Shown in pieces: positions 8,701-64,000 of a stretch of DNA of 64,000 nucleotides. Source of the stretch: Laetmonice hystrix (Eukaryota). The notes beneath the pieces were generated by a model. That model ran no database searches, was not told the DNA's origin, and saw only the letters and a list, made by a program, of their open reading frames with translations. The stretch spans positions 24,120,001-24,184,000 of the forward strand of contig OZ249436.1 in the NCBI GenBank assembly GCA_965235115.1, read 5' to 3'. The position numbers and the translations under genes were made by a program. How positions within the stretch are numbered: position 1 is the stretch's first letter; every line of letters starts with the position of its first letter.

Positions 8701-9685
8701 TAGTGCGTTACATGTCACCTTACGGTGAGCGGCGTGAAGCCCCTTACGCTCGACGTAAGGGTGCGCATCAGTGCGTTACAATTGACTTTACGGCGAGCGG
8801 AGGGAAGTCCCTTACGCTGAGCGTAAGGCAGCGTAAGGGGGCGGGAAGTGTGACATTACGCTGCGCCGTAAGGGACATGATTTGGTGCGGTGATATATCC
8901 AAGCCATAAAAGCCTGGCAGATTTCCTCTTTTCCCTTTTTCTATTTCACGAGTTTTCGTTTCTTTTGAATGTGGGTCTTTCAATCTGTTATGTTGAATTT
9001 TAAATAAGATGCATTTGCGGGCTGTGAAAAGCCCCCAAATTTCAAGGGGGGGGACTGGCCCCCTTTTCCTATTAAAAATGGCTATTTTGGGGGTGGGGGC
9101 CTAGATCCAAGATCGATAGGCCCAGGAAAAAGTAGGCCTGTAACCCTAGAGGCCAAATAGGCCTAAGCTAGCTTAATTAGCCCAATTCTAAACGCCCTTT
9201 TGCACCCAAGCATTCTATTTGATTTTTAACCAGTTTTATCCTTTGATATACGAATGACCATTGGGGCATGAGGCCCCCCTAGGGGCGTTTTACCCCCGGG
9301 GTGGGGGGCGTTTTGCCTCACGGGTATATTTTTTACCGAGGCGAGCGTGACATAAAATCTTCGGCGTGGATGGTCGAACTCTTTTCCCCCATTTACAGAT
9401 AGTTACTTCTGTTATGTTATCATGATAGTACTTAGGCTGAATCACACAAAGGTAATGTGACCAGAGGACAAGAGTGTTGCACAAACCTTATACGAAAATA
9501 TGCATAAAATGTAATGTTGACCTACTTTCGTGAAAATATCTCAAATCGTCTTGTGCGGCCTGGCGTCAACACTACGTCCATTAGTGCACAAAATAACCGC
9601 TAGGGAATCCCAACTCAAGGATAGATAACTGAGTTAACACTAGGGGGCGTCTTTCCTCAAGGGGGCGCCTTGCCCCTCTCTACTC
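5736..9685. mobile_element. Non-autonomous TA-targeting (Tc1/mariner/pogo-type) DNA transposon inserted in the Penelope RT
   Basis: Perfect 25-bp TIR gagtagagaggggcaaggcgccccc; TA at 5734-5735 and 9686-9687. Removing it rejoins aca-ata-ccg-ttc-ctg-gac (T-I-P-F-L-D). Confidence 0.92.
5985..8892 (-). mobile_element. CAC-ended fold-back DNA transposon (EnSpm/CACTA-like) nested in the previous element
   Basis: ~200-bp near-perfect TIRs (caccgcaccaaatcatgtcc...), imperfect inverted symmetry to ~6640/8170, ATA on both flanks; decayed minus-strand transposase-like peptide (NGRVWTDFQHDFLVAPNN) near 7400-7460. Confidence 0.8.
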
Positions 9686-9687
9686 TA

Positions 9688-10683
9688 CCGTTCCTGGACA
9701 CGGTGGTAAAAATACACAATGGAGCACTAATTACTGACCTCCATAATAAAGAGACAGATGCACACAACTATTTGCACTACTGTTCCTCACACCCTTCCCA
9801 TTGCAAAAGGGGAATCCCCTATGGGCAGTTCTTGCGGCTCAGACGCATCTGTACCAAGGAAGAAGACTTCATCAGGCATGCCCTCATCATGGGCGCTCAT
9901 TTCCTCAGCAAAGGATACCCTAGGGACCTACTTGCCCCAGGACTCATTCGAGCCCTACACTCTCCACGCCCAGATCCCACAAAAACAATGGCAGACAAAG
10001 AAGTGCCAACATCAGGCCCTGCCATACTTGTCACAACATTTCATCCCACCTTCAGTTCATTGAATAGGGTGGTAAGGAGAAATTTGGAAATATTGGCCCG
10101 ATCCGCCAGAACACAAACACTACAAGCAAGACTTCATTGTAGGTATGCGAAAACCGCCCTGCCTACGGGACCAATTGGTCCGGGCAAAGCTCTCATACCG
10201 TGTGGGCCCACCCCATACGGACCCGGCGGCAGCAGTGGCCACCCGGCAAGAACATGCAGTAACCCACACTGCAGATATTGTCCAAAGATAAATAAGAGTG
10301 GAGAAACCACATCTTCCTCTACTGGAAGACAGTATGTCACGAACGTGAACTACCACAGCTCCAACTTGATCTACTGTTTGAAATGCACAAGGCGTTCCAA
10401 ACAATATGTGGGTCAAAACAAAAGGAGAGTGATGGACAGGTTCCAAAATCACTTCTACCGAATCCAGCACCAGAAAACTACTTCTGACATGGGATTACAT
10501 TTCAACAGCGGCGGGCATCAGGGCCTAGCCGATGTAGAAATCACGATCCTGGACTTCATACACTGCGGTCCGAATTCCACCTGTGCACAACAATTGCGTA
10601 ATATCATAGAGCGGAACTGGATGTTCAAACTCAGAACACAGGTTCCATTTGGCATGAACCTAATTGATGCATCCATCTATTAA
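9688..10683 (+). pseudogene. Penelope-like RT thumb plus GIY-YIG endonuclease (C-terminal continuation)
   Basis: PFLD, YLHYCSSHPSHCKRGIPYGQFLRLRRIC, Cys linker CSNPHCRYC, NLIYCLKC..QYVGQ, ERNWMFKLRT..PFGMN. Confidence 0.92.
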
Positions 10684-11499
10684 GTTCAATCACCACAGCC
10701 AATACCAACCAGGGGCGGTCCTCTTGCCTCGTTTAAAAATTTTATTATTACCAGACCCCCCTATATGGACTGGAGGACGGTGCAACCTCTACACCCTCCA
10801 GGGCTGTCGCATAAGTGGGCAGATTTTACCAAAAAATATTCCCCCACTCCGTTGCGGCTCTCGCCCAAGTCAAAGAGTGATATCGTCACATACCTTGCCA
10901 CTGCCCTAATTAAGATGCCTGAAGAGTTCAATATGAATGAAACTTTGATAATCACCGGGCAACCCAAATAAGGGGATTGCCTTTTACCGGAATATTTGTT
11001 TGGGGATTGCCTCCATAGTATAACCAATCGGGTTGAACTTGGAGGGGGAGAAATAAACAATGTTTGATCTCTAAGGTGACATAACATTTAACATCATCGG
11101 TATTCCAATTTACGATGATGGCCGCAAGAACCCCATAGCAACGACGGTTGGGCCTGATTGTAATTCAATCACTTTCAAGATAGCATCGGCAGGAGTAGGT
11201 TGATTTCGCCTTGTCCTAATAGATCTTTGTTAAAAGAGACGTCAGATCCTCGACCTCGTGGACTAACGGCAGTGTAGCTACAATCGACCGTCGACACCCC
11301 AATGACTGGGTGTGGGATTCACCAGATAGAATTTGTGGAAAAACACAGAGTTGCATCCGAAAATGAAATAAAGTTCTTCATCCCCAATGCGTGGAAGATA
11401 CACAGTTGAAGCTTTCGGAGCAATAGCACGACGTTGGTAAGCTGTGCCGTGGCGTTCTCACCTCAAACATTAGCCTGATGGTTAGGCCCTTTGTCATAT

Positions 11500-12675
11500 T
11501 GTAAAATATCTATCTAAATTTTTAGTATCCACTGGAAAATACCTACAGGGTAAATTCTCTGCTGACATTTATTATTATGACATTTTATTAGTAGAACTTA
11601 TTCATCACGACTATATCTATTATTCTTAGGAAAATATACTCGTACCTATATATCTGAACTATACTAACCTTCTAAAAGTAACCTTCTAAAAAGTAACTGT
11701 ACCCACGTACAGGGCAGGCCAGTTGTCCAATGTATTCCAAACAAAGGTGAGACCGACCAGCGCCCTAGGTAGCTCACCCAAATTGAGAGATAAACTTTTG
11801 ACCATTTAATTCCCCATACACCATACGGTCGGGAGGTCACTGGCCTGCTCCACTCGTGATCATGTTCCACTCGTGATAGTGTCCACCACAGGGTCAAGGC
11901 CGTCTGTTGTACTCTGGGCACCACCAGGTTGGCAGATAGTGTGTATCCATGGGCCGGGCTGACCAATGGCTATTCATGGACCACGCACCCTCCCAATCAA
12001 ACATGGCGTGCTGCTAGGGGGCAGCAGTGGTCAGCGACTGTCTAAATAGAAAATGTATTAGGTTCCCAAGAGGTATGCCACCAGGTGGCACTGGCATAAA
12101 AGGGACAAGTTGTAAGAATCTAGAATTTGACCATCACGAGTGAGGGAGTGTAATAATCAGTAGTGAATCATGAGTGTACCCCCGACCCTCTCCCCGACCC
12201 TCTCCCTGATATCCCTGCTGGTATATATATGGGCCTGAAATAAAGCAAAGGCAGTTTTGGTTCGTACTGGCTGTACTACTACACACACTACTGGATCGTT
12301 TGGCTCTTCTCTACCCCACGGCACGCAGCCCCGACACCACCTTGGGCCATTCCGGTACTAGTATGGTTGGCAAGTAGCACTTTACTCGGGAATCTGGGCT
12401 TGGCGTTGGGCTGGTGATGTTTGCAAGATGGCATAATTACTAACCACTTGGGTGGAGACGTGGCCCTAATGCTCGGTCAGCTATGAGAATGCCCCCTGGT
12501 GTCGAGACGCAACACTGACGTGCTGATACTGACGGTGCTGCCCCCTAGTGAGCAAAGGTAGAACTGATGCACGGGACAGCTCTAACGTACGGGAGTAACG
12601 ACCCTCTTCGTTACTGGTGACCGCGATATATTGATACACCATTAATGAATCAGGATTAAGGTCATGATTTTTACA
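11500..12675 (+). repeat. 5' LTR (1176 bp)
   Basis: Begins tgtaaaa and ends ttttaca just before the PBS; TATA-like tatatatat at 12222-12230 and aataaa at 12239-12244. Confidence 0.9.
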
Positions 12676-12676
12676 G

Positions 12677-12694
12677 TGGTGACCACGATGGGAC
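12677..12694 (+). promoter_or_regulatory. Primer-binding site, probably tRNA-Arg
   Basis: tggtgaccacgatgggac one base after the LTR's CA end; resembles the complement of a metazoan tRNA-Arg 3' end (recalled, not searched). Confidence 0.75.
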
Positions 12695-12929
12695 TAATTA
12701 CAAGTAATTACAATTTAATTGCTTGAACGAAGGCGCTACCGCAAGGAGGCCGCCCACAGTCGGATTACTGACTTACAGATGACGCATGGAGCAACCAGGT
12801 AGGATGTGCCACATCTATTGACGCCACGCCTGAGCACCCGTGTTGACCTCAAGTCACCGCACCCTAGTTTTGGCACTCCACATAGGTAGGAACGGCGTCA
12901 CGCTTCAGTGCTTCTCTCGTTAACACAAC

Positions 12930-13898
12930 ATGGCTGCCCCGGACCTGCAGCAGGCCCGGCTTAACTTGGAAGCCACCCGGGAAATACGTCGGAGGCTAGA
13001 ACAGCACGCCAAGCGCATCGGGACTGCGGATGGCGCCAACAAGGAGGCACTGCGTGAGTGGGTGCGAGGGGTCAATTACGCCGCTGCGTGGACGGGAGCA
13101 GCTGACATAGTGTTGGGGATGGTAGGTTACCTTACCACCGGGCCCTTAGCCACGTTGGTGCGGGAATACGTGGACACGGCTGGACAGGGTCGCACCTGGC
13201 AAGGGGCCCGGCAGCCGATAATGACCGCGTTCCTCGACGAAGATGAGCGGGAATACCTGCGTTCCAAGGTAGATAAGGTGGTACAAAACCCGTATGAAGA
13301 CTCGCAAGAATATGGCTGCCGTTACATCACAGCGGTGCAGCAGGCATACGATGCGGCCGACCTACAGCTGCCCCTTATCATGGAACTTTTCAAAACAGTT
13401 TATCCAGGGCCTACGGGACAGGGCAGTGAAAATCCAGGTTTGCATGCAGCGTCCAGCCAACTTGAATGCTGCCGTCGACGCTGCCAACAACGCTGCCCGA
13501 GCGGTAGGATTGGCTGAGTTTGGGAATGGCCGGATAGAGGAGGCCATGATTGGTGCGCTCCCACTGCCACCGCCGCCACCATCACTACAGACGACACCCG
13601 AGATGCAGGAGGTGAGGCAAATCCTCAAGACTCTCCAGGGGGAGATTAAGTCTTTTTTCGCAAAGCAATGGGACATCAGAGTTCGCCACCACCTGCGCAG
13701 GTGCAACGCAACTATACTCAAGCACGTCGAAACCCTGCCCCGCCGTCAGAACATCGTCGACGTGAAGGTGGGCGGGATCGAGCCTGTTATGAGTGCGGAG
13801 CTCCAGATCACTTTGTCAGGGAGTGTCCCCAGCGCCGACAGGAAATTGCCAACGCCGTGCAGGCTGCCATGGCAACGCGTAATCAGCCGGGAAACTAA
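12930..13898 (+). pseudogene. gag: gag (frameshifted) with CCHC zinc knuckle
   Basis: Overlapping ORFs 12930-13517, 13294-13935 and 13668-13898; CYECGAPDHFVREC knuckle. Confidence 0.9.
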
Positions 13899-13913
13899 GC
13901 AGCGCGCTGGCTC

Positions 13914-16900
13914 ATGGAGGTATGCATCAACGTGAAGGTGGGCGCTGTCACATTGAGAGCACTCGTGGACACCGGTGCTTGCCGTTCCATGCTCCGTACG
14001 GATGCCTGGGACAGGATATACGGACAGGCAGGTGGGTCTGCTCGCCTATGTCCGGGACTGAGATTGCGTTCTCTGAGTGGGCACGAGATACCCACCCGGG
14101 GGCGTGGGTTAGTTAAATTTCTTGGAAAGCGTGTGGAGTTTTATGTAACCGATGAACTCCATCATGACGCTCTCCTAGGTACTGACATTCTAGCCAAACT
14201 TGGGGCTGAAATCAAGTACCAAGAACAGACGGTATTGTTGCGGGGTAAAACATACCCCTATTACACTTCAGATGGGGAGGACCGTGATGTAGCCGCCATA
14301 CACTCCGAATTGGATCTATGGATGAAGGAATTTCCCCAAACCTTTGCGAAGGAAGGTCAGGTCAATGGGTGCACGGACGCAGTGTCCATGACGATTGACA
14401 CAGGAACGCACCCCCCCATCCGGTAGCGACCATATAGGCTCCCCTTGTCCAAGCGCCGTGTAGTGGACAAGGAAATTGACGCAATGTTGCGAGACGGGGT
14501 CATCGAGCCAAGTTCGTCAGCGTGGGGTTCCCCGATCACGCTGGTACCGAAGAAGGACGGCTGTATACGTTTCTGCGTGGACTATAGGAAGTTAAATTCA
14601 GTGACTAAAAAAGATGCGCATCCCCTCTCGAATATCCAAGACATTTTTGACAGCTTTTCTGACGCATGCATCTTCAGTACGCTGGATTTGAAAAATGGCT
14701 ACCACCAAGTTCTGGTGCGTCCTGGGGAGGATAGGGAGCGAACTGCCTTCATCTGTCATCGTGGTTTATTCCAATTCTGTCGGATGCCATTTGGGTTGGC
14801 CAACGCACCAAGTGTTTTCCAGCGACTAATGAATAAGGTGCTGGCCCCCTTCATTGGGCACTTTGTAATGGTATATTTAGATGACATTGTTATCTACAGT
14901 CGCTCTCAAGAAGAGCACCAGGAACACGTGAAGATGGTCCTCACGGCACTCCAGAACCATGGGCTCAAAGCCAAGCCCTCTAAGTTTCACTTTGGAATCA
15001 GTGAGTTGAGTCTGTTGGGTCATGTGTCAGCGGATGGTATTAAGACTGACCCTGAAAAGGTAAGCGCCATCAAGGAAATGGCACCCCCCAGTGACGTTAA
15101 AGGCGTCCGCTCTTTCCTGGGGATGATGGGATACTACCGTCAATTCATGCCTGACTATGCCCGCATCGCAAAACCACTGACCGAACTCACCAAGAAGAAT
15201 GCTCGCTTCCAGTGGAATGAGCAACATCAGACAGCTTGGGCCCACCTCCGAGATACCTTGACGTCATCTCAAGTAATGGCATACCCTCGTCTAGATCGTC
15301 CGTACAAATTGTACACGGACGCCTGCGACTACGCGGTAGGTGCCATTTTAGTACAGGAGGATGACGAAGGAGTGGAGAGGCCAGTCCAGTACGTGTCAAA
15401 ACAATTGTCAGGTGCACAACTAAATAGCAAAGGAGGCCTTCGCGGTGGTCCATGCCTTAAAGAAACTATGACCGTACCTGTATGATGCGACCTTCACCAT
15501 ATATACAGATCATAAGCCGCTCAAGGCTTTATTTTTATCGGAAATTAAGAATGCACGCATACAAAGATGGGCCGTGCTGCTGGCAGAATATGGGGCACCT
15601 ATTGAATACCGTAAGGGCCCCCATAACATCCGAGCTGACATGTCCCGCATCCGTCCCCTCGGCCAGGAAGCTCCACAAGTTGCCACCATGGAAGAAGAGG
15701 ACAACGTCCCTTGGGAGTATGACCAGCTGGACCGGGAAGAGATCCGTCAAGAACAGGAAACGATGGCGTAATACATACAAGGTCAGGATGAGGACAACGA
15801 CTACATCCTACAGAAGGGCCTCCTGTACACACTGGTGCCACCTTCCGGCAAAGCTGAGTACCCTCGCTTGGTGCTGCCAACTAGCGTGAGAAGGAAGGTT
15901 ATCGCTCGAGCTCATGGAGAAGTGGGTCACCAGGGTCACCGGAAGACACTCGACCGCATCCAAGAGGTCTACAAATGGCCTAATCAACGTAAAGAGGTCA
16001 GGGAGTACATTAGTCAGTGTGCGCGTTGCTCAGTGAACCACACGAATAGGAACTACCCACCCCCTACAGACATGCCGATCGCCCAGTACCCCAGCCAAAT
16101 AGTTGGTATAGATATGTGTGGACTGTTCCCCACCTCCAGATCAGGGAACCGTTATTTACTGGCTATCATCGACCATGCCACCGGCTGGGCTGAGGCTAAG
16201 CCATTACCACAAAAGACCGCCAGTAATGTGCTCAGTTATCTTGAGTCAGAATATCTCCCTCGTTACGGTCCACCAGAAGTCATGATCATGGATCGTGGCT
16301 TGGAATTTAGAAATAAACTAGTCAAAGACTATTTGGCGAAGTTGGAAATTGACATCCGACATACAACGCCCTACCATCCCCAAACCAACGGCAAGATTGA
16401 GAGATTCCATCGGACCCTTAAAAACATCTTACAAAAATTGGTGAACGCACGAGCGGGAGAATGGAAGGAGTGTTTAGGCCCTACGCTATGGGCTCATCGC
16501 GTCAGCACCTCTGAGGTAACAGGACATTCCCTGTTCTTTTTAACGTTTGGGCGCCAACCTCCTGTCCCATGGAACCGTCTATGTACAATACCGGCGGGAT
16601 CCGAAAATGCAGTGCTCACTAACCGCCTGGAGGTCCTCAGTCAAGCATTTCGAGATGCAGCGAAAAGGACTGAAGACAGCCGCATGTACAATCAGGAATG
16701 CCTACAACAACGTGCCAGGGCAGCTTCCCTCGAAGTGGGCGACTACGTCACTGTCCGTGCCCAAGACAGGGCACCCTTGGACCCTAAATGGGATCGCGGG
16801 TACATTATCACCAGGATTAGAGGCCCTGTTATCACAGTCCTCGGGCCAGGCAATCATTATCGGACTGTGAACCGGAGTGATATCTGCATAGCCTCTCCTG

Positions 16901-17136
16901 AGTGCGATTGGGATGAACTCCGGACACGTCAAACCAGGACACAACGGACAAAGGCCCAGAAGGTCATGACCTTTAAGCCTCCGGAGATAGACCCGCCTGA
17001 ACCCCACTACAATCTATGTAGTCGGTCTGGTATTAAAAGGGCGAGCGCGGTGGAAGACCCACTCAGTCCTGAGAGGAAGCGTGCTAGACGACGAGGCACA
17101 TATGCTTGTAAGCGGAAGCCAAATAGTGAACAATAG
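13914..17136 (+). pseudogene. pol: pol: aspartic protease, RT, RNase H, integrase (in-frame stops and frameshifts)
   Basis: ALVDTGA; RFCVDYRKLN, MPFGLANAP, YLDD; LYTDAC..AVGAIL; H..H..C..C zinc finger, DRGLEF, YHPQTNGKIERFH. Confidence 0.97.
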
Positions 17137-17153
17137 CGGGACGCCAAACGAGT

Positions 17154-18932
17154 ATGTATTGCCGCTGTGCAACATTTCTTTGCATCGTCAGCCTCACTGT
17201 AATCAGGGCTGACTTGTTTCATGATGACGGCGTGTTGGTAGAAGACCAAGGGACGACTCGTATTGTGTCTGGTCTCTGGACGGTAGTCATCGTCATCCAC
17301 CCACCGTCACGTCCCAATGTCACCCTCTGGAAGCACAGCCTGCAAGTTACCTTATATAAAGCCCGTAACCAAATCAGCAGAAGACAAGGAGATGTGGGAG
17401 CATCGGATGACGGCTCTCAGCGCTCGAAGAGACGTCACGGTGGATGTGACTGCCGGGCGTCAGGAAGCGGCTATCCCCACTGGCCGTTTGACTTCGTGGG
17501 GAAGATCAGCAAGTCCCTATTCGGTACAGCCACTACGGTCGACCTTCGTGTGCTAGAGACCGCCATTCGTCAGACCCGTCAGGGCCTCAACAGTATCCAC
17601 CACAACACCCAAGAACTGCTGACCATAGTGAACCAGACACGCAGGTACGTCCATGAAAACCATATGGACTTACAATTGGTGCAACGAGAGACCATCAAGC
17701 TGAATCGTTTAGCTACCGAGACGGCTAAACGCACCGAAGCACTAGCGATATTCCGGGGTCGGTCAATATTACAACGACAGGTCGACCTGGCCGTGCTGCA
17801 GATGGAGATGGCCATGCGCGACTACCATCTACAGGAGCGCATTTACCATCAGCAGCGCCTCCAACTGGAGCAAGGATGGCTCACCGAAGACATCCTCGTG
17901 GTAGACGGTCTGGCAACCATCCTGGATCGACTTCAACAACTGGGGCATAGTACTCTGAGGCCTCACTGGTACTACCAACACGTCCGCATTACTCCACTGT
18001 GGGACCGGAGCCAGGAGCTGGCTTTCCGTGTCGTTATTCCAGCTCTACGGAAGGACAGGTACCTGACCTACCGATTTCACTATTTTAAGATACCCATCGG
18101 TGAACATTTACGACATGTACAGGGCAGGGACAGTCTTGCTGTTAACACCCTGACTGGTGCCACGTTTGTGCCCAGCAACTGTGCTGGCACGCAGCCCATT
18201 GTATGTAACCCTGTGTATGAGGAATTGGCCCCCTACATGTGAAGGAGCATTGGTCTCGGGACATGCACCAAGCAGGTGCTGCATATAGTTATCACGTCCC
18301 GAGGCAACATAACGTCTGAAGTGTTTCGAACCACTGACCACACCTCCGTAGTGGTAGCACCTTATGTAAAGATGGAGGTGAGGCTACGATGTCCTGATCA
18401 ACCCCCGCGTCGACAGACCGTATCAGGACCGGAACGAATAGCCGTCACTGCCCCATGTCTATTGGAGTCTGACACGTGGCGAGTGTCAGGACTCCAGCGA
18501 GGTCAAGAGACTATTCACGTTGTACCACCTCGATATGTGGATGTACCACGGTTGAACTTTACATGGCCAAAAGGCGTGCCGCCTACCATGGTTCAGCAGC
18601 TGAAATTCGTGCCACGGGCCGAGGTGCCACTGGTAGACATGAACAAATTCGAGACCACGACCGACGCTGGCTCATCATGGACGTTCCTACAACGACCCAT
18701 GGAGTACGGGCTAGTTGTTTTGTCCTTCGTGATGATAATTGGCCTCGTGATAGGCATATATGCCTACATGAAACTTCGTCGGCGAAAGCCAAAGAAAAAC
18801 GTTTTAACACCAACGACTCCAGAAGTTGTCCAGTTAGTGGTTAAAGACACAGAAATTCCAACATCTTATATACCGAATCCCTACCGCACATTAACAGAAA
18901 CTCTACAGACAATCGCAGAGGACAGTGTGTAA
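17154..18932 (+). pseudogene. env: env-like membrane glycoprotein (errantivirus / baculovirus F-like class I fusogen), frameshifted
   Basis: N-terminal signal peptide-like stretch, fusion-peptide-like PFDFVGKISKSLFGTAT followed by heptad-like helices, Cys-rich region, C-terminal TM YGLVVLSFVMIIGLVIGIYAYM then KLRRRKPKK. Confidence 0.85.
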
Positions 18933-18957
18933 AGTGGCTCTTGGTAGCCAAGAGCCA

Positions 18958-18973
18958 GAAAAACGGAGGGAGG
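18958..18973 (+). promoter_or_regulatory. Polypurine tract
   Basis: Purine-rich gaaaaacggagggagg directly before the 3' LTR start at 18976. Confidence 0.8.
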
Positions 18974-18975
18974 TG

Positions 18976-19908
18976 TGTAAAATATCTATCTAAATTTTTA
19001 GTATCCACTGGAAAATACCTACAGGGTAAATTCTCTGTTGACATTTAATATTATGACATTTTATTAGTAGAACTTATTCATCACGACTATATCTATTGTT
19101 CTTAGGAAAATATACTCGTACCTATATATCTGAACTATACTAACCTTCTAAAAGTAACCTTCTAAAAAGTAACTGTACCCACGTACAGGGCAGGCCAGTT
19201 GTCCAATGTAGTCCAAACAAAGGTGAGACCGAAGAGTGCCCTAGGTAGCTCACCCAAATTGAGAGATAAACTTTTGACCATTTAATTCCCCATACACCAT
19301 ACGGTCGGGAGGTCACTGGCCTGCTCCACTCGTGATCATGTTCCACTCGTGATAGTGTCCACCACAGGGTCAAGGCCGTCTGTTGTACTCTGGGCACCAC
19401 CAGGTTGGCAGATAGTGTGTATCCATGGGCCGGGCTGACCAATGGCTATTCATGGACCACGCACCCTCCCAATTAAACATGGCGTGCCGCTAGGGGGCAG
19501 CAGTGGTCAGCGACTGTCTAAATAGAAAATGTATTAGGTTCCCAAGAGGTATGCCACCAGGTGGCACTGGCATAAAAGGGACAAGTTGTAAGAATCTAGA
19601 ATTTGACCATCACGAGTGAGGGAGTGTAATAATCAGTAGTGAATCATGAGTGTACCCCCGACCCTCTCCCTGACCCTCTCCCTGATATCCCTGCTGGTAT
19701 ATATATGGGCCTGAAATAAAGCAAAGGCAGTTTTGGTTCGCACTGGCTGTACTACTACACACACTACTGGATCGTTTGGCTCTTCTCTACCCCACGGCAC
19801 GCTGCCCCGACACCACCTTGGGCCATTCCGGTACTATTATGGTTGGCAAGTAGCACTTTACTCAGGAATCTGGGCTTGGCGTTGGGCTGGTGATGTTTGC
19901 AAGACGGC
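18976..19908 (+). repeat. 3' LTR, truncated (lacks the last ~245 bp)
   Basis: Matches 11500-~12432 with about 15 substitutions by eye; identity stops after gtttgcaagacggc. Confidence 0.93.
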
Positions 19909-20297: not shown

Positions 20298-20474
20298 CTT
20301 ACTCCTGTATTTTTCGTTGCCAAGACGGAATTTAATATATGGATCTGAGAAACCATTATCATCCATTGGCAGAAGATTAGTTCCCTCAACTAGGACAACT
20401 GTCACTACTGAACTCCATATCTGAGTCTTCAATTTCTTGGCTGTGTCCCCAAGTTTCACGGTTTTCTTGAAATA
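20298..20474 (-). CDS. MCTP1: Internal exon of a multiple C2 and transmembrane domain-containing protein (MCTP1/2-like), start of a C2 domain
   Basis: 59 codons YFKK...KTQIWSSVVTVVLVEGTNLLPMDDNGFSDPYIKFRLGNEKYRSK; acceptor tttttattgcag and donor gtgagt; phase 0-0. Confidence 0.9.
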
Positions 20475-29310: not shown

Positions 29311-32300
29311 TATTTTTGGCGTCGTAGTTGTAGTAGTAGTAGTAGTAGTAAACTTGTATGTCTATCTCAGTCAATTTTCAAAATATCGAAATGAAATTTG
29401 GCACACATCTTGACAATGACGAAGTATGGTCAGGCATCGAATCCTGACGTCATGTGACGTCACGTCATAACGTGATGACGTCAAACGTATTATGAAAATT
29501 GAAGCCATTTTTAAGCTCATATTGGGAATTTTTTTAAAAACCCGTCATGGCCTCATAATCGGCCATAGGTGCTGCCTCAATTTGAGTCTTGATTTGACCT
29601 TTGACCTTTGACCTTAGGGTGAACTGGGTCATTGGTCACAAATCAGTTAAATTGCTTCTCCTTTTCTATTTTTTGGTAAAATTCGACAATATTCGGCAGA
29701 AACACTCTCTAACGAAAGGTTCACAATACGATTCCAAGGATTAGCGATTTGACCTATTTTTACCGAACCACGTGACTTTGAAGTTTGTCACTTTTGACAT
29801 TTTTTTCTAAAACTGCTTTAGTCATATAGGAATCGTGTATTTGGTCAATAGATATGTGCTGCTATTGACGATTGATCACTTTGCATATTTCTTTTCATAA
29901 ATTTACCAATATCTTTTTTATTTATGATGAAATAATGTAATCTGACGTTGACAGGCTCTACCTTAAACCTGTTTAAGATAGCCATATACAAATACAACAA
30001 TTACAAAGTGTATAGATTCAGGTATACCACTGGCTGTTTAGTTCTTGTTTTGGAAAGGTAATATGGCCAGAATTGTAAGTTTTAATGGGTATAGTCTTCA
30101 TAATAATATTTTTGCCGTCTGACTGTTGGCATCTCTGAATACACAGATCTCCCACTGTGATGCGGCCGCCGGTCCCTGGCCAGGCCGGGAGAGAGTTACG
30201 TAAGTGCTGGTGATAAGGGCCGGCCGGCCGGCCTACTCCCCCTCCCTCCCAGTGAGGGAGGAATATGATTGTGTATTCAGGTTCTATCCCCCATGATAAC
30301 TTTCCACGAAATGTTTGGGCAGGGGTTAGGGTTAATATCAGGGATAGGGGTAGGGTAGGGATATGTTTTGGGGAGGTGTAGGAACTGGGGTTAGGGGTTA
30401 GGGGTTAGGGGTTAGGGATAAGGTCAGGGCCATGAATCTTTCCTTTCCACCAAATTTCGTGGAGTTTAAGTTATCATGGGCGATATACCTGTATTCAGAA
30501 CTGACTTAGCTGTGCCTTTGAACTGTAGGTGTAACTGCCTAATGCATTTGTTTTTGAATCTTATGTAGGAGAGCTGAATAAAACAATACTACTGATTGTT
30601 GGTTGTGGAGTTCAAGTGACACGACAAGCTTTTGGTCAGCTGCACTTGGTTTAGCCTGAGCCAACAGTCTGGTGTGGATGACATTCGCACCTATTGGTAA
30701 AGTTTCATGATGTATGACTACGTGTTGGCTAAATGGCGAGAGATAGAAGTGAACGAACGGTGTGCACAGTAGACAGGTATGCAGTCGTCCTGGCGAGCAG
30801 CACACACAATAGATGCAGCAATCACTTGAGCGGGTCTGCGGAAGGGAGAAGGGGAACGCTCTGTGAGAAATACTTAAGGACTGTTTATAGAAGAGGTACC
30901 TTCTCAGTCATATAACATGCCAGCCATAGGGCGGCAGCTCTCAATCAGAGGAGCCGGTCAGGGGGCGGTCAGTTAATTGGACGTGGGCCACCGGCCAATG
31001 ACCAGTGACCATCCTTTAAACTGGGACTGGGGCCAAAACGGGAACGAGGGGATATATGAGAGCACCAAGAGAGAGAGAGAGAGAGACTAGGGGAGAAGGA
31101 GCAGAGAAAGGACAGAGATATAGATTTGTCTATGAGGAACATATAGACACTGACTGCCTAGTGACATATTGGTCGAAGCGGGACAACCGTGTGCCTCAGG
31201 AATAAAAGCTTCAAAACTCAAGCGACGACTCTACTACCAAGAAGAAATGTTAACAAGGGTGAAGAGAAAATTAGCACTGTAATTAGACACATTGAACTGT
31301 TATGTTATGAGGCTATCATTTTTGTATAATACTAAAATATATAGGAAAGCACTTTTCAGTGCACAAGTCAACTTGCCATGGGCAGATGCGCCCAGAAAAA
31401 AATGAGTGCCGGGCGGTAGTTTTCCGCTAGCAGCGAAGGCGCAAGGTTTTCAGTTGGCAAGGGGTGCAGATGGGGAGATATTTTTTCAGATGATAGGCCT
31501 GATAAAAATTCCTGCCGGGCAGCACTTAAACCATTTTAGTTTTGTGCCAGGCGGCTAAAATCGGTGCCGGGTGGCGCCGCCCGGCGCCGCCCGGCGCCGC
31601 CCGGCGTGGGCACATCCCTCTATACCCCCACTCTTTCTTTTTGAAGAATTGACAAAAAATTATTGTTAGGCTAGCCACGGGTCCAGGATTTTCAGCAGAG
31701 GGGTCTCGGGAAATCTTAAAAAATTAAAAGCTCTTATAAAACGATTTTCCGCCTTTTAGGGCCATTTTAGGGCATTATATTTTGTGGATTCATCACTCAA
31801 CTAGTTGAAAATAGCCGGAATGCTTTGCACCTGTTCGTTCCGTGTTGAAGGGAAAAAGAATCTATGTTCTGGCGGAGAATGGGGTCTACCGACACGCGCC
31901 TTAAATACTTTGAGAAACTTTACATCTATCTCCAGAAATAGCGTTTTTTGACCTTCTAAATTCCAGCAAAGAACCTCGATACCTGGATCTGTGCATGCCT
32001 GCGGGAGGAGCATGACGTTATGATGTTATCATTATTTCTTCAGCCTATAACTTGTAAACGGTGCAAGATGGAGCCATGGTTACTATTGAACAGGAATAGG
32101 AAGTCATATACATTGTATGCTCTTTCAATTGACACCAAGATTTATGATGTAATGTATCATTATTATGTCATAATGATGCCATTGACATCTTCGAAGGTTT
32201 CTAAATCCTAAACCATTCAAGATAGAGCAATGGTTACCATTTAACCCTAATAGGAAGTCATATATGATCTTTCACTTGACATTTTTTTAGGTATTTTTCT

Positions 32301-32574
32301 CAGGGCTATAACTTGTAAATGGTAGAAGTTAGAGCTATAGTTACTATTAAACAGTAATAGGAAGTCATATAGCCTACATGCTCTTTCATTTGAGACCAAG
32401 ATTCATTACATAGTATGACGTGTCACCTCATAATTACGTCATTGGCATCTTCTAAAGCTTATAGGTCATTAACTGTGCAAGATCGAGCCATAGTTTACCC
32501 TACTCAGAACATGTCATATATCACGTGACTCCCCGGGGATGGGATCAATTGTGGTATCGCCACAACGTGTCTAG
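29253..32574 (+). mobile_element. HINE-like element A (innermost of the nest)
   Basis: 5' box atcccatcccc; (tag)n; 3' subTIR ggggatgggat 32535-32545, hairpin ttgtgg/ccacaa, ctag end. Confidence 0.8.
30278..30491. mobile_element. Small MITE with internal (ttaggg)-like repeats
   Basis: cagg...cctg ends with longer imperfect IRs (ccatgataac / gttatcatgg); TSD tatt; empty-site versions tgtgtattcagaa at ~45380 and (reverse) ~23430. Confidence 0.8.
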
Positions 32575-32575
32575 T

Positions 32576-34418
32576 TATTATTCTTCCTGTAGTAAGACAA
32601 GGCTGGCCATTCGCTCAGTTTTTAAAGTATCTGAATCGAACTTGGACAGAAGGTTCACCTAGGCAAGGACACCTGGCACCCAGATGCATTACGTCATAGG
32701 ACGTAATTTGGACGTTTTATGACGTAATATTGGCGTTTTTCAGCTAAATTTTGAAGTCGTTTTTCATAGTGCTCTGAGAAGATACTCAAGAAGCGTTAAT
32801 GCCATCTGATGAACATTAAGTCCACTAATAATTTTCTAGGTGAAGTTGACCTGTGACCTTTGCCCTTAGTCGAAATTAGGTCAGAGGTCGGAAAACGCTT
32901 AAAACGTATCTTCTCCCTCAATTTTCAATAAAATTTCACCAAATTGGGCAGAGAGGCTCCTGATAGGAGGGTGCTTAAAAGTTTGGCTGGATTTTTTGAT
33001 TTGACCTAGTTTCACCCTGTCACGTGACTTTAAACATGTGCATATGTTATGTTTGCATAGAGAATATACAATTTTGTATCTATGCAATATCTAAGCAATA
33101 TCTAAGCATATTTTAGACAGGTTTGTTAGCCTGTCATACATAAAACATGTTTCAATTATTTTTTTTTCAGAATTGACCCTGTGACCTTTGACCTTTGGCA
33201 AAATTAGTTGCAATATATGGAATCGCCTGTAACTTGAAAACAAGGCAAAATAAGCCAATAGTTGCTATTAATCAAGTATAGGAAGTCATATATTGCCTTT
33301 CATTTGGCGCCATTTGTACTTCGCTACAGTGACCTTGAAAGGTCAAATCTATGACCTGCATAATTATATTCAATGCTCTGTATCTTGGAAACCGTGCACA
33401 ATAGGCCCATAGTTACTATTAAACATAGATAGGAAGTCATATATGGCCTTTCATTTGGCGCCATTTGTACTTCGCTACAGTGACCTTGAAAGGTCAAATC
33501 CATGACCTACATATATTCAATGCTCTGTATCTTTGAAACCGTGCACAATAGGCCCATAGTTACTATTAAACATGGATAGGAAGTCATATATGGCCTTTCA
33601 TTTGGCGCCATTTTTATTTCTCTGGAGTGACCTTGAAAGGTCAAATTGGTCACCTGCCAATATTCAGAGCTCTGTATCTTGGAAACCGTGCATGCTAGGT
33701 CCATGATTACTGTTAATCATGGATAGGAAGTCATATATGGGCTTTCAATTAGCGCCATCTTTTTTTCTCTGGAGTGACCTTGAAAGGTCAAATTGGTGAC
33801 CTGCCAATATTCAGAGCTCTGTATCTTGGAAACCGTGCATGTTAGGCCCGTGGTTACTGTTAATCATATATAGGAAGTCATATATGGGCTTTCAGTTAGC
33901 GCCATCTTTTTTTCTCTGGAGTGACCTTGAAAGGTCAAATTGGTGACCTGCCAATATTCAGAGCTCTGTATCTTGGAAACCGTGCATGTTAGGCCCGTGG
34001 TTACTGTTAATCATATATAGGAAGTCATATATGGGCTTTCAGTTAGCGCCATCTTTTTTTCTCTGGAGTGACCTTGAAAGGTCAAATTGGTGACCTGCCA
34101 ACATTCAGAGCTCTGTATCTTGGAAACCGTGCAAGCTAGGTCCATGATTACTGTTAATCATGGATAGGAAGTCATATATGGCCTTTCATTCGGCGCCATC
34201 TTTATTTCAATACAGTGACCTTGAAAGGTCAAATCTATGTTCCGCCAATATTCAGATTTTGTATCTTGGAAACGATGGATGATAAGCACATAGGTACTAT
34301 TAAACATGCATAGGAATTAAGTTGAGATGTTTTTTCTTCAATGTCACCTGCCTTTGTTCTTGCCCTCCTATGATACAGGAAATGGGATTTGGTGTTGCCC
34401 AGCAACCCATCGCTCTAG
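32576..34418 (+). mobile_element. Body and 3' end of HINE-like element B (5' box at 29193)
   Basis: 3' subTIR ggaaatgggat 34378-34388, hairpin gttgc/gcaac, ctag end. Confidence 0.78.
33230..34320 (+). repeat. 147-bp tandem repeat, ~7 copies, inside element B
   Basis: gtgaccttgaaaggtcaaa recurs at 33329, 33480, 33627, 33774, 33921, 34068, 34215. Confidence 0.95.
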
Positions 34419-57505: not shown

Positions 57506-60000
57506 TGAGTCGAGAGAATAACAATTTTTCAAAGACTTTAGAGAATGTAGGCAACATATTGGTCTATAGTTAGTGTATAAGTTTTTGGCACCTGATTTAA
57601 ATAGTGGTTTCACTCGGGCTATTTTTAGTTCCGTAGGGAATACTCCAACTTCTAGGGTGAGGTTAATTATATGTGTAAGGGGTGTTATGATGTGATCTAA
57701 GATGTTAATTATAAGGTTTTTAGAGATATTGTCCCAGCCCCCTGCTGCATCATTAAGGTTAGTTATGATTTTTTTGACTTCCTCCGAGGATGCAGGATTG
57801 AGGAAAATACTCGGTTGAGTCGGTGTAGGTAGAAAAGAGACAAAGTTTGTCTCTTCATATGGGATTTTATTTGCAAGATTTTGTCCAATTTGTGTGAAGA
57901 ATTCATTTAAAGTTTATTGGTTATTATTGGTTGTTGGTTATTCTCTTCACAAGTTCCATCATCATTAATAAAAAAGGTGGGGCAGTCTTTGGGTGTTCCA
58001 CCACCTGCAATTTCTTTTAGTATTTTCCACTGTTTTTTAATATCAGTTTTGGCATCAAGCAGTAGGCTTTTATAATACTTTCGTTCGGTTAATTTCAATT
58101 GTTTGTTAACTACTAGTTTACAGTCCTTATATTGTTTTACATTTTCCACTGTATGATATTTTTTTTGCTTTACATACAGTTTATTTTTGAGTTTAATTAG
58201 TTTTCTAAGTTCAGCATCAACCCAGGGCAATCTGTTTTTATATAATTTTAATGGTTCAGTTAATGGAAAGGAATGGTCAAAAGCCTCAGTAAGAATTTTA
58301 TGAAGCATGTTATAAGCTACAGTTGGGGAGTCCATCTTCAAAATATCAGTATAGTTGTATGATTTAACAGATTGGATAAACTTGTCAATATTTTTCTTAT
58401 TTATTTTCCTTTTTAGTTTAGTATTAGTTTCTTGTTTTTTATTTTCTGTGGTTATTATTAATGGGTAATGGTCTGAGATATTACTCATAAGTACAAAATG
58501 TTGAGAAATATTGCTATATGAATTAGTAAATATATTGTCGATAATAGTTTTAGAAGAATCGTGTACCCTAGTGGGTTTATCAATAATGGGAAAGAAACCA
58601 TAGGAGAACCCAGCATTTAGTAATAGATCTGCAGAGGCAGATTTCTTACTAAAGTCCACATTAAAGTCACCAAAAATAAATGTCAGAGAGTTAGATACTT
58701 TCTCCAATATACAATTAAACTTCTTTTGAAATTCAACAATATTCCTTCCGGGGGGTCTATAGATACAGCAAATCGTAGCATCTTTTTTTCCACCAAGTAA
58801 GATACCTTAAAGTTCAGTACTTCTAAATTACTATATGCTAAATCTTCTCTAATCATAATGCCAACTCCTCCTCCTAACTTCCTTGTTCTGCAGTTATTGA
58901 CACTACTATACCCAGGCAAATTATATAAAGTTGCATTTCCATTATTTAGCCATGTCTCTGTAAGACATACATTTGAAAAGGGTTAGGCAGTAGCAGCGTT
59001 CTTAGTTCAGTGTGGTGCTTTGGTAAACTTCTAATGTTCATATAAAACATACCATTTCTCAATGAATCCTTGTCATTCCATGACAAACTAAGCTGATTAT
59101 ATAAATCGTGAGAAATACATTTGGCAGATGTGATTGACTGACATTATACCAATTTCTATCAGGATCAATTTCATTTAAAGGGTAACAGTCTTCCATATCA
59201 CAGTCTGCATAGTTAATCCACTTTAAAAGGTCGAAGTCAAAGTTTTTAGAAGGTGAAATAGATTGAAATTGTAAAATTAAACCTTCATCTGATATTGACA
59301 TGAATGGTAATTCTCTAGGAGTATTTACATCACTATCAATCATTATGAAAAGTAAAGCGTAATAGAAGTACACATTTAAACCATTTCATACAGGTGACAA
59401 CAAATTTCGGAAAGAGGACCAGGTTTCTCAGTAGTACATGTTGGTGTAAAATATACAAATAGCCCAAAGTTAAGTGAAGAAAAACGGTGCAATCAAAAAC
59501 CAAAGAAATAACTAGTGAAGGTATAATATAACATTGAGATGGTTGTTTCAAAATTTCAGAGCATACATTATCCAGGAGTATGTGAAAAGGAGAGCAGTAA
59601 TAACAAAAGTAGTTAAGTGATTTGATTGAGTGGAGTGAAATGTGTACCTGGCAGAAAGGGACATTGATCAGTACAAATTCAATTCTAGAGAGTTAATTTG
59701 ATAGCTATATCGGTAATCTTTTGCGGATGACAAAGACATAAATTAAATAATGTGATTTACTTTTTACACAATATTATTACGTGAATATTATTGTGACCTA
59801 ATGAGTCACGTTTAACACATGATAGTATGAAGTAAAAATTTTTATAATAATCATAATACTTTTGATCTATTGAGTCATAAGATATGATAATACAAAGACA
59901 GTAAAGATTTATCATGATACTGATTATGATACGCTAGTATGTCATCAAAAGAGTTAAATTATAATTATGGAAAAAACTATAGGCCCCTATATACCCCTCC

Positions 60001-61985
60001 TGACTGTATTTTTCTTTTGAAATGCACGGGCATCAGGGGTAACCCAATTACTTTGACAATGTCCCTAAAGAGAAAAGTTGTATAGTCTACAGGAATCGAA
60101 CCCAGGCCCTAAGATTACTGCACCCATTCGCATAGCATAAGGTGTCGACACCCATGCCCACTCGGCCACCGCGACTCCCCTAAAAAAAGGAGCTTTGGTG
60201 GTCGAGCAGTACAATGGACCCTCCCTCCTACACACATCTTTTTGAAATGAGACGGAATCCATATTTTCCTAGTTAGAGCTACACATGATTTCTACCGAAC
60301 ATTGACTGTTAAGGTAATCCTGGCACTGGCGTAGACTTTCTTTTTCTTTTGAAATGCACGGGCATCAGGGGTAACCCAATTACTTTGACAATGTCCCTAA
60401 AGAGAAAAGTTGTATAGTCCTCTACAGGAATCGAACCCCGGCCCTAAGATTACTGCACCCATTCGCATAGCATAAGGTGTCGACACCCATGCCCACTCGG
60501 CCACCGCGACTCCCCTAAAAAAAGGAGCTTTGGTGGTCGAGCAGGACAATGGACCCTCCCCCCTACACACATCTTTTTGAAATGAGACGGAATCCATATT
60601 TTCCTAGTTAGAGCTACACATGATTTCTACCGAACATTGACTGTTAAGGTAATCCTGGCACTGGCGTAGACTGTATTTTTCTTTTGAAATGCACGGGCAT
60701 CAGGGGTAACCCAATTACTTTGACAATGTCCCTAAAGAGAAAAGTTGTATAGTCCTCTACAGGAATCGAACCCCGGCCCTAAGATTACTGCACCCATTCG
60801 CATAGCATAAGGTGTCGACACCCATGCCCACTCGGCCATCGCGACTCCCCTAAAAAAAGGAGCTTTGGTGGTCGAGCAGCACAATGGACCCTCCCCCCTA
60901 CACACATCTTTTTGAAATGAGACGGAATCCATATTTTCCTAGTTAGAGCTACACATGATTTCTACCGAACATTGACTGTTAAGGTAATCCTGGCACTGGC
61001 GTAGACTGTATTTTTCTTTTGAAATGCACGGGCATCAGAGGTAACCCAATTACTTTGACAATGTCTCTAAAGAGAAAAGTTGTATAGTCCTCTACAGGAA
61101 TCGAACCCCGGCCCTAAGATTACTGCACCCATTCGCATAGCATAAGGTGTCCACACCCATGCCCACTCGGCCACCGCGACTCCCCTAAAAAAAGGAGCTT
61201 TGGTGGTCGAGCAGGACAATGGACCCTCCCCCCTACACACATCTTTTTGAAATGAGACGGAATCCATATTTTCCTAGTTAGAGCTACACATGATTTCTAC
61301 CGAACATTGACTGTTAAGGTAATCCTGGCACTGGCGTAGACTGTATTTTTCTTTTGAAATGCACGGGCATCAGGGGTAACCCAATTACTTTGACAATGTA
61401 GTGATTAGGTCCCTATATACCCCACGTGACTGTAGTGATTAGGCCCCTATATATCCATCCTGACTGTAGTGGTTAGGAATCTATATAACCCGCCTGAATG
61501 TAGTGATCAGGCCCCTATATACCCCTCATGAGTGTTGTGGTTAGGCCCTATATACCCCACATGACTGTATTTTTCTTTTGAAATGCACGGGCATCAGGGG
61601 TAACCCAATTACTTTGACAATGTCCCTAAAGAGAAAAGTCGTATAGTCCTCTACAGGAATCGAACCCCGGCCCCAAGATTACTGCACCCATTCGCATAGC
61701 ATAAGGTATCGACGCCCATGCCCACTCGGCCACCGCCACCTCCCTAAGAAAAGGAAGCTTACGCCACCTGCCTGTAATGATTAGGTCCCTATATACACCG
61801 CCTGACTGTATTTTTCTTTTGAAATGCACGGGCATCAGGGGTAACCCAATTACTTTGACAATGTCCCTAAAGAGAAAAGTTGTATAGTCCTCTACAGGAA
61901 TCGAACCCAGGCCCTAAGATTACTGCACCCATTCGCATAGCATAAGGTGTCGACATCCATGCCCACTAGGCCACCGCCACTAGTG
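60001..61985 (-). repeat. 335-bp tandem repeat (4 full copies plus 2 shortened variants), each with a tRNA-derived head
   Basis: Period 335 (equivalent ORF starts at 60262, 60597, 60932, 61267); minus strand gtcgcggtggccgagtgg...ggttcgattcc...tttt in each unit. Confidence 0.92.
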
Positions 61986-62180
61986 ATTATGAACCTATAT
62001 ACGCCACCTTCCTGTGGTGATTAGGGCCCTGTATACCCCAGCTGACTGTAGTGATTAGGTCCCTCTATATAACCTGACTGTAGTGGTTAGGAACCTATAT
62101 AACCCACCTGCCCTGTAGTGATTAGGACCTTATGTACCCCTCCTTACTGGAGTGATTAGGTCCCTATATACGCCACCTGC
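61397..62180. repeat. ~35-40-bp minisatellite (tgtagtgattaggtccctatatac...) interleaved with the tRNA-like units
   Basis: Copies at 61397-61560, ~61772-61805 and 61980-62180. Confidence 0.85.
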
Positions 62181-62570
62181 CTGCCTGCCCAAAAGAAACC
62201 AGAAAGCTTGATCAGCATTACAGCCACACCATTGAGAAGCCTGTTTCCAACATGGTGAACGGCAGCCATCTTGGATTTCTCGGTCAAAACGAGGTCGAAT
62301 CATTAAGAAAGTACCAAAAATGAATTCCTTGACCCCAAAAACCCCAGAAAGCATATGCTGATTAGCACTGTAGCCTAGACCATAGCAAAAGTAATTTTAA
62401 AGGTAGCCCCCGGCGGCCATTTTGGATTTTGGCCCCTTGCGAAGTTAGCCCACACTTTCGCGAGGGTCACCCTCGCTAATTTTTCAAAGTAACCCTCACA
62501 GATGACAAATCCATAGAAAAACCTTTGTTTGGACTCAACGGTCACGGAAGTGCCAGAAATGACCGGACTA

Positions 62571-64000
62571 CAGTGGTGGATCACCTTTCTTCATCTTGGC
62601 TGCCGTTACTCTGTTAGGAACACCAAGCTGATTCACCCGTAAAGTACCACAGGCACCTGTCTGTTGATCTCCTAGTTCCCGAAACAATGCAGGGGAGGTA
62701 AAAAAATTGTCCATGTATAGATAATGTCCTTTGTTGAGTATTGGACTGGCTACAGGCGTGACTACATGATGAGCAAGACCTACACCATTAGGCCAATCAG
62801 ATTTTCCCGTGTACAGTTCCCAGTTGTACATGTAGCCTGTCCGGCTATCGGCAAGACACCAGGCTTTCAATTCCCACTTGTGTGGCTTAGCAGGCATGTA
62901 TTGCATCATATGTGTCCGACCCTTGAAGGCAATCATCGATTCATCGATGGAAAGGTTGCGTCCTGGGTTGAAAAATCTCTGCCATCTCTCAAGCAAAAGG
63001 GTGATGAATCGCCAGAACTGAAACCATGAAAAAGGGCACATTATGATTTACAATAAATTTATCTATTACCATCACATCTAGGCAAAGGAATATTTGCACA
63101 GCACCTTATAATTTGTCAATCAGGCATTATCTAACCAATTTATATTCATGTATTTACTGTATATAGGTAAAAGTGAAAATAAAGCCTAGAGTAGGCCTAC
63201 TTTTTTATATACATGTACTGGCAATACATGATTATATTGTTCATATCAGTAAAGCATGGGGGGAGGGGGAATTCGTTGAAAAAGAAAAATACAGTACTAT
63301 ATCATTGCAGTCATCCAATGTTTGTTTAGATCCTTGGGCTGGAATTTGATCCCTGAAATAGATCCCTGAATTCTATTTAGATAGCCAGAATTTCAGTTGC
63401 ACTTTACCTTGAAGCACCTGTCATGCTGTGGGTGGTCCCTTGGAACATTTTCTTCATTATTTGTCAAATGCAAAAACGTCATCATGTTTGAGAATGCATT
63501 GCGGCTCATTATCTTCTTTAGCCCCGGCAGTTCCCCTATGGGATTCGTCGTCCAGTGTGCCTCATAGTTTGGAAAACGTACCGTACATAACCCATCAGGA
63601 GTAGAATGGCCAGAAATGCACGAACATCTCCGATTTTACAATCCACCCACTTCCGAATCCTGGCATGTGGTTTGATCTGGTCCCCGACTGCAGAAAAATG
63701 TTGTTTGGCATACCGATTTGTCTCCGTGCAGATCAAGTCACAAACAGTGTCATCAGAGAATAAAGCAAAATGGCCGTACTCATTAGCGTCTTCTGGGATG
63801 TTTTTACGACTGCAGTCTGTTGAATCGAAGTCTTTGAGCCATCTGGCAGAATATGCTTCACTGTCACTAGTGTCAGATACATTCCTCCGTTCGTTTGGTG
63901 TGTCTCCAGATGAAAGCTTGTCACTGTCTCCATCAGATTCACTGTCGTCCGATTCCGCTTCGAATCCCAAGAAATCCTTGTTTTCCGTGTCCGAATCATC
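62571..64000 (-). pseudogene. piggyBac (PGBD4-like) transposase, frameshifted, 3'-interrupted, with a putative intron at 63018-63407
   Basis: ICTETNRYA, LSIDESMIAFKGR, QYMPAKPHKW, LADSRTGY, YMDNFFTSPALF, ACGTLR; acidic N-terminus runs off the window. Confidence 0.92.

What the first reader, a model, noticed from the sequence alone, without database searches (positions are those of the whole stretch)
17154..18932. env-bearing gypsy element (errantivirus-like) in an apparently non-insect genome
Seen: a third ORF of ~590 codons in two main pieces, starting 18 bp after the pol stop, with signal peptide, fusion-peptide-like FDFVGKISKSLFGTAT, heptad-like region and C-terminal TM anchor. Known: insect errantivirus Env is related to baculovirus F class I fusogens. 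Inference: this is a potentially infectious endogenous retrovirus-like lineage. The LTRs differ by only ~1.5% by eye, so intact siblings may exist. The cleavage site is ambiguous because compensating frameshifts appear likely around 17380-17480.
Basis: partly seen in the sequence, partly recalled or inferred. Interest (0 to 1): 0.72.

Follow-up and report, generated by a model that had tools for sequence, protein, structure and literature searches.

The report
Broken envelope-carrying gypsy element, known kind
This is a damaged copy of a retrovirus-like jumping gene in a probably worm-like marine invertebrate, carrying a broken envelope gene predicted to fold like the fusion (F) proteins of paramyxoviruses and baculoviruses; such elements were recently catalogued across animals, so it is one more example and not a new kind.

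Summary
A Ty3/gypsy LTR element (11500-19904) carries gag, pol and an env frame (17154-18932) that has one in-frame stop. Relatives confirm the suspected pair of compensating frameshifts (about 17374-17487). The LTRs differ at 14 of 929 sites. Env is F-type: 14 of 15 aligned proteins hit Pfam Baculo_F at E<=0.1, and the model matches baculovirus F and RSV F. This copy is dead: all three genes are broken, there is no furin motif beside the fusion peptide, and the 3' LTR is cut short. Related families have full-length, multi-copy env. The kind is published. Chary & Hayashi (eLife 2026, PMC13524379) list 1,512 such elements, including 74 annelid rows, 73 of them F-type. A close relative's pol has the 'mini' bridge domain of their 'ancient errantivirus' group, not the insect form. 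The host is probably an annelid, but my own test was weak. Infectivity is untested. The scan earlier noted a gB-type gypsy and an F-type copia in other genomes. New member of a known kind; low interest.

The parts
11500..12675 (+). 5' LTR, 1,176 nt, with 7-nt terminal inverted repeats (TG...CA)
   Evidence: the only reverse complement of the first 7 nt between 11 and 21 kb is at 12669-12675
12677..12688 (+). primer binding site; 11 of 12 nt match the tRNA-Arg(UCG/UCU) 12-mer (the mismatch would be a G-U pair) and 10 of 12 match tRNA-Trp
   Evidence: compared by eye with the 12-mers in supplement 1 of PMC13524379
12930..13898 (+). gag, broken over at least two frame changes; CCHC zinc knuckle near 13779-13832
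   Evidence: (zf-CCHC E 2.9e-6)
13899..17136 (+). pol in gypsy order PR-RT-RNase H-IN; stops at 14424, 15769 and 17134, frame change near 15422
   Evidence: RVT_1 6.5e-35, RT_RNaseH, Integrase_H2C2, rve; 71% identity to relative P0161 in two frame pieces
17154..18932 (+). F-type env, broken
17154..17207 (+). predicted signal peptide (residues 1-18), start methionine shared with several relatives
   Evidence: inferred from hydropathy and alignment
17374..17487 (+). stretch between two compensating frameshifts; no furin motif beside the fusion peptide in any frame
17487..17534 (+). fusion-peptide-like segment, followed by heptad-type helices
18240..18242 (+). in-frame stop in env
   Evidence: a 1,200-nt contig of run X1 is identical across it (table 8)
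18708..18764 (+). predicted transmembrane anchor (about residues 519-537), followed by a basic stop-transfer run
18956..18975 (+). polypurine tract (17 of 20 purines)
18976..19904 (+). 3' LTR, truncated at its 3' end; 14 differences from the 5' LTR in 929 nt
20298..20474 (-). host MCTP (multiple C2 and transmembrane domain) exon, AG/GT-bounded, 59 codons; the element lies antisense in what is likely the following intron

Best explanation
This is a gag-pol-env Ty3/gypsy LTR element broken in all three genes, whose env is predicted to be an F-type (class I) membrane-fusion protein and whose intact ancestors likely used it to enter neighbouring, probably germline, cells. Shown: the architecture, the breaks, the 1.5% LTR difference, and env's sequence similarity to F-type proteins. 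Predicted: the class I fusogen fold, and the 'mini' bridge domain in pol that marks the published 'ancient errantivirus' group. Inferred from Drosophila gypsy and paramyxovirus F: in intact family members env would be made from a spliced subgenomic RNA (pol appears to overlap the env start, which argues against reinitiation after pol), enter the secretory path, be cut by furin just before the fusion peptide, form trimers on budding particles and refold its heptad helices to fuse membranes. This copy can at most be a passive remnant. Identity as a decayed ancient errantivirus: about 0.9. Env-mediated cell entry by the family: about 0.55.
For: Domain order and LTR/PBS/PPT. 14 env relatives at E 5e-171 to 5e-26; a profile of them finds 3,547 representatives at E<=0.001 and 415 at E<=1e-30. 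Baculo_F at E<=0.1 in 14 of 15 members, best 9e-10. The profile's only hits below E 0.2 among solved structures are two 'fusion protein' sequences (9w4c/9w4d, E about 1e-5). Foldseek top hits: RSV F, E 2e-10 and Culex nigripalpus NPV F, E 3e-15. VIA Z 11.3 to post-fusion RSV F (286 aligned, rmsd 8.4) and Z 9.8 to its head domain (200 aligned, rmsd 4.8). R-x-[KR]-R stands directly before the fusion peptide in 12 of 14 relatives and in 41 of 43 full-length members of seven clusters (71 listed members examined). One env cluster has 14 of 15 listed members full-length, and two of its sequences were each seen on 11 contigs. The bridge of pol relative P0161 is modelled as helices 587-604 plus short strands 610-613, 616-619 and 631-632, about 97 residues between the RNase H and integrase Pfam hits, as described for the 'mini' domain. 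9 of 10 catalogue elements labelled Arg_UCG_UCU are polychaete F-type.
Against: This copy's own Baculo_F score (20-22 bits) is below Pfam's cut-off of 24.1. The env model is middling (pLDDT 61.6, pTM 0.41; HR2 region <50) and Foldseek TM-scores are only about 0.2-0.36. The bridge was modelled on a relative (71% identical over that half), not on this copy. No placement in the published RT tree was possible. For mechanism: in Drosophila an Env-less gypsy still reaches oocytes (PMC4276936 passage), and PMC13524379 says transmission is unknown outside Drosophila.
Confidence: 0.85

Rival explanations
1. Same identity, but the family replicates inside one cell like an ordinary retrotransposon, and env is carried along or serves something other than infection.
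For: No infectivity data exist for non-insect elements. Env-less gypsy still reaches oocytes. Many cluster members are fragments, e.g. only 3 of 14 and 5 of 15 listed members are full-length in two clusters.
Against: The furin site, fusion peptide and anchor are kept across 22-49% identity. Among 112 further relatives of 540 aa or more, 109 have a C-terminal hydrophobic stretch, and 81 of the 84 with the fusion-peptide motif have a basic motif upstream (loose pattern).
Confidence: 0.3
2. A recent, independent capture of a viral F gene by one gypsy element in this host.
For: Fold hits are to exogenous viral F proteins.
Against: Those hits are only 9-14% identical, whereas env relatives are 26-49% identical and probably sit beside related pol genes in six other elements, with a shared clade in both trees.
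Confidence: 0.03
3. An insect-type errantivirus (insect host, or a horizontal transfer from insects).
For: The Pfam hit is the baculovirus F family. The MCTP exon separates insects from other animals only narrowly (43 of 59 identical to several insects, 45 to octopus, abalone and horseshoe crab).
Against: The bridge is short and of the 'mini' type, not a second RNase H fold. The PBS is Arg/Trp-like, not Ser/Lys/Leu. The exon falls outside the insect-crustacean group in a weak tree.
Confidence: 0.03

Closest known systems
'Ancient errantiviruses' with F-type ENV (Chary & Hayashi, eLife 2026, PMC13524379), especially the polychaete elements
   Same: gag-pol-env order, Ty3/gypsy domain order, F-type env with signal peptide, furin site (in relatives), fusion peptide and anchor, RNase H plus 'mini' bridge (in a close relative), Arg- or Trp-type PBS, LTR length in the range of the Trp-primed polychaete elements (about 0.9-1.2 kb).
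   Different: This copy is not intact and would fail their catalogue filter.
Drosophila gypsy / ZAM / Idefix (genus Errantivirus, insect group)
   Same: Three-ORF layout and an F-related env with signal peptide, furin site, fusion peptide and anchor (PMC4276936 passages).
   Different: No pseudo-RNase H duplication in the bridge, a different primer tRNA, a CCHC knuckle in gag, and a probably non-insect host; the spliced env mRNA and infectivity known for gypsy are untested here.
Baculovirus F (Ld130 type) and paramyxo-/pneumovirus F
   Same: Predicted class I fusogen fold.
   Different: 9-14% identity only; these are fold relatives, not donors shown by any test here.

Membership tests
Ty3/gypsy LTR retrotransposons | pol domain order PR-RT-RNase H-IN | tested here: met
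Ty3/gypsy LTR retrotransposons | LTRs with TG...CA ends, PBS and polypurine tract | tested here: met
   (3' LTR truncated)
Ty3/gypsy LTR retrotransposons | target-site duplication | tested here: inconclusive
   none seen, but the 3' end of the element is missing
Ty3/gypsy LTR retrotransposons | RT classifies with Gypsy Database profiles | not testable with these tools
   no GyDB library on hand
ancient errantivirus, F-type (operational: env-containing Ty3/gypsy) | third ORF after pol encoding an F-type glycoprotein | tested here: met
ancient errantivirus, F-type (operational: env-containing Ty3/gypsy) | furin site plus fusion peptide in the family's env | tested here: met
   12 of 14 relatives; lost in this decayed copy, where the fusion peptide remains
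ancient errantivirus, F-type (operational: env-containing Ty3/gypsy) | RNase H followed by a 'mini' domain (N-terminal helices, three small strands) | tested here: met
   model of relative P0161, 71% identical to this copy over residues 483-1073; judged from secondary structure only
ancient errantivirus, F-type (operational: env-containing Ty3/gypsy) | placement in the 'ancient' RT/connection clade | not testable with these tools
   reference sequences not available; the best RT relatives are unnamed
intact elements of the Chary & Hayashi catalogue | continuous ORFs with full RT and IN | tested here: not met
   stops and frame changes in gag, pol and env; this copy is not filed as an intact element
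insect errantiviruses (Errantivirus in the strict sense) | duplicated 'pseudo' RNase H in the bridge | tested here: not met
   (on relative P0161)
insect errantiviruses (Errantivirus in the strict sense) | env expressed from a spliced subgenomic mRNA | not testable with these tools
   needs RNA reads of this host
insect errantiviruses (Errantivirus in the strict sense) | insect host | tested here: inconclusive
   59-codon MCTP exon leans non-insect with weak support
HSV/gB-type env gypsy elements | class III (gB-like) ectodomain | tested here: not met
   the model has class I long helices and all listed PDB hits are F proteins

The most novel reading that the evidence does not exclude
The family is still amplifying in this genome as a truly infectious, retrovirus-like agent, in a marine host group where the published survey found no intact element (brachiopods, phoronids, lancelets, echinoderms, sponges) or passing between individuals. 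That would extend the known range and give a non-insect setting in which to watch env-dependent spread.
Probability: 0.08. Interest if true: 0.45.

Novelty: new member of a known kind. Interest (0 to 1): 0.15.

Why it matters
On its own, little: it is one more decayed F-type ancient errantivirus, and it agrees with the published view that env-bearing gypsy elements are old and widespread. The open question, whether non-insect elements use env to infect germ cells, cannot be tested on this dead copy. A young family in a tractable invertebrate could help answer it through expression and insertion data. Small additions: a probable pol/env overlap in the family, and a large pool of unnamed relatives (415 representatives at E<=1e-30).

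Tried and rejected
Searching the host genome for intact siblings: no genome is held, so the copy census is open. Sequencing runs: three holders, one sample, one study, possibly the source of the window; no RNA holder listed, which says nothing about expression. Contigs laid on the element show diverged relatives (e.g. 30 differences in 289 nt and 24 in 276 nt in pol) but are too short to show an intact copy, and their depth is no copy number. RSKR at 17421 as the cleavage site: rejected, because it lies in the non-homologous frame. LTR end at 12428: rejected; the inverted repeat and PBS place it at 12675, and its last part has no second copy in the window. Host phylum from the MCTP gene: only one exon is in the window; the best matches are unnamed (51-54 of 59) and named taxa are not resolved. 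RT neighbours for clade naming: the top relatives are unnamed. Accessions for env relatives: none given. Pol-env co-divergence by Mantel test: not significant. Earlier scan notes by sequence: none. Literature: three searches; no claim of absence from print is made. The paper's figures and its GitHub sequences could not be seen and may contain this family.

Full report
Observation. The env frame runs 17154-18932 (592 codons) with one in-frame stop at 18240-18242, and 17 nt separate it from the pol-frame stop. It has a hydrophobic N-terminus, the segment FDFVGKISKSLFGTAT at 17487-17534, long predicted helices after it, and a membrane anchor near residues 519-537. The suspected compensating frameshifts are real: 6 of 6 relatives match a second frame over about 17374-17487 (scores 69-99, against 16-26 for the other frames). 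The stop is not an assembly slip, since a 1,200-nt contig of run X1 is identical across it (this run may be the source sample).

The element. The 5' LTR is 11500-12675, bounded by 7-nt inverted repeats and followed after one base by a primer binding site. That site matches the tRNA-Arg(UCG/UCU) 12-mer of PMC13524379 supplement 1 at 11 of 12 positions and tRNA-Trp at 10 of 12 (compared by eye). Gag (12930-13898) has a CCHC knuckle and at least two frame changes. Pol shows protease, RT, RNase H and integrase in gypsy order, with three stops and one frame change. A polypurine tract precedes the 3' LTR (18976-19904), which lacks its last 247 nt or so; no target-site duplication remains. The shared 929 nt differ at 14 sites (1.5%), so the insertion is young, but without a host rate it cannot be dated. 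The pol stop at 17134 looks premature: 6 of 9 relatives align past it up to their C-termini, so the family's pol probably overlaps the env start (short alignments, 8-11 identities). The element lies antisense to a host MCTP exon (20474-20298), probably in its following intron; no other MCTP exon was found in the window.

What env is. A word-seeded search gave 14 relatives among 7,999 candidates scored, at 26-49% identity. A profile of these found 3,547 representatives at E<=0.001 and 415 at E<=1e-30 among 1.84 billion. Pfam Baculo_F matches 14 of 15 aligned proteins at E<=0.1 (best 9e-10); this copy scores below the curated cut-off. The profile's best solved relatives are two 'fusion protein' sequences (E about 1e-5). 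The AlphaFold2 model is middling (pLDDT 61.6, pTM 0.41). Its top Foldseek hits are nevertheless RSV, hPIV3, NDV and henipavirus F in the PDB (best E 2e-10) and a baculovirus F in BFVD (E 3e-15). TM-scores are low (about 0.2-0.36); VIA gives Z 11.3 (286 aligned, rmsd 8.4) to post-fusion RSV F. A furin motif stands just before the fusion peptide in 12 of 14 relatives and in no frame of this copy; the RSKR at 17421 is a by-product of the shifted frame.

Env belongs to the family. Six pol relatives (62-75% identical over RT) share an exact longest-contig length with an env relative or cluster member, which suggests shared contigs. Pol and env trees both recover a clade of this element and three relatives (support 0.99 and 0.985). 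The distance correlation over all 7 is weak (rho 0.55; 322 of 5,040 permutations). One env cluster has 14 of 15 listed members full-length, all with the furin motif, and two of its sequences occur on 11 contigs each, which points to recent amplification of intact env in a related family; other clusters are mostly fragments (3 of 14, 5 of 15). Contigs from the holder sample show diverged copies but cannot show an intact sibling, and no genome was held for a census.

Host. The one host exon is closest to unnamed sequences (51-54 of 59 identical), then octopus, abalone and horseshoe crab (45), chiton (44) and insects (38-43); the only named annelid, Ridgeia, gives 40 over a shorter match. It falls outside the insect-crustacean group in a weakly supported tree. 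Earlier AI notes on this genome say 'probably annelid'; I could test that only partly. 9 of 10 catalogue elements with the Arg_UCG_UCU label are polychaete F-type, which fits but proves nothing.

Comparison with what is known. From PMC13524379 I read the abstract, Introduction, Results sections 5 (part 1), 6, 7 and 8, Discussion (part 1), Methods section 14, passages by search, and parts 1-2 plus searches of supplement 1 and the other supplements. It reports 1,512 intact env-carrying Ty3/gypsy elements across invertebrates, absent from Echinodermata and Porifera; the element table has no brachiopod, phoronid or cephalochordate row. Annelids have 74 rows, 73 F-type (counted). Its 'ancient' group has RNase H plus a 'mini' domain; the insect group has a second, pseudo-RNase H. 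A model of pol relative P0161 (pLDDT 81.6) shows two helices and three short strands in a bridge of about 97 residues, the ancient type. From PMC4276936 I read passages only: gypsy env is made from a spliced RNA and cut by furin, anti-Env antibody blocks infection, yet an Env-less provirus still reaches oocytes. Other papers were seen as search listings only.

Mechanism. Intact family members would reverse-transcribe from an Arg or Trp tRNA and integrate as gypsy elements do (established knowledge). Env would be made from a spliced RNA, cleaved by furin and displayed as a class I trimer that fuses particle and target membranes, letting somatic cells seed the germline (inferred; about 0.55). 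The rival, that env is carried without an infectious role, stays open (about 0.3). This copy can do neither.

Verdict. It is a decayed new member of a published kind; interest 0.15. It would rise only if the host lies outside the surveyed range or the family proves active and env-dependent.

Noticed in passing
window:11493-19907: One contig in each of runs X1 and X3 joins the left and right flanks, skipping the element (40 letters on the shorter side, letters between unknown), and 3-4 contigs leave the window at 11499. This fits an empty site, or other copies of the flanking repeat, and a later deletion of the LTR end and target duplication.
   Followed up: partly
window:13896-13901: The last gag piece and pol are in the same frame, separated by a single stop; this could be read-through or decay.
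   Followed up: no
window:12615-12622: A second copy of the first 8 nt of the primer binding site lies 62 nt upstream of it, inside the LTR end.
   Followed up: no
window:12930-18932: About nine lesions (four stops, five or more frame changes) seems many for LTRs 1.5% apart; the copy may already have been defective when it inserted.
   Followed up: no
window:4143-5736 and 9625-10683: Pieces of a Penelope-like RT / GIY-YIG element left of the LTR element (label by eye from the translation).
   Followed up: no
window:49402-53423: Helitron-like Rep/helicase and endonuclease pieces (label by eye).
   Followed up: no
window:55638-58806 (-) and 62568-63047 (-): Non-LTR RT/endonuclease pieces and a piggyBac-like transposase piece (labels by eye).
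   Followed up: no
window:37270-44532, 33214-34253, 59999-61996: Tandem arrays: five units of about 1.43-1.49 kb, about seven of 147 nt, and four or more of 335 nt.
   Followed up: no
window:20921-23262 versus 30672-32371: A long, interrupted inverted duplication (arms 81-96% complementary, 7-11 kb apart).
   Followed up: no
P0214, P0216: Two gypsy pol relatives carry an extra precomputed Pfam domain, PF01661 (recalled as the macro domain).
   Followed up: no
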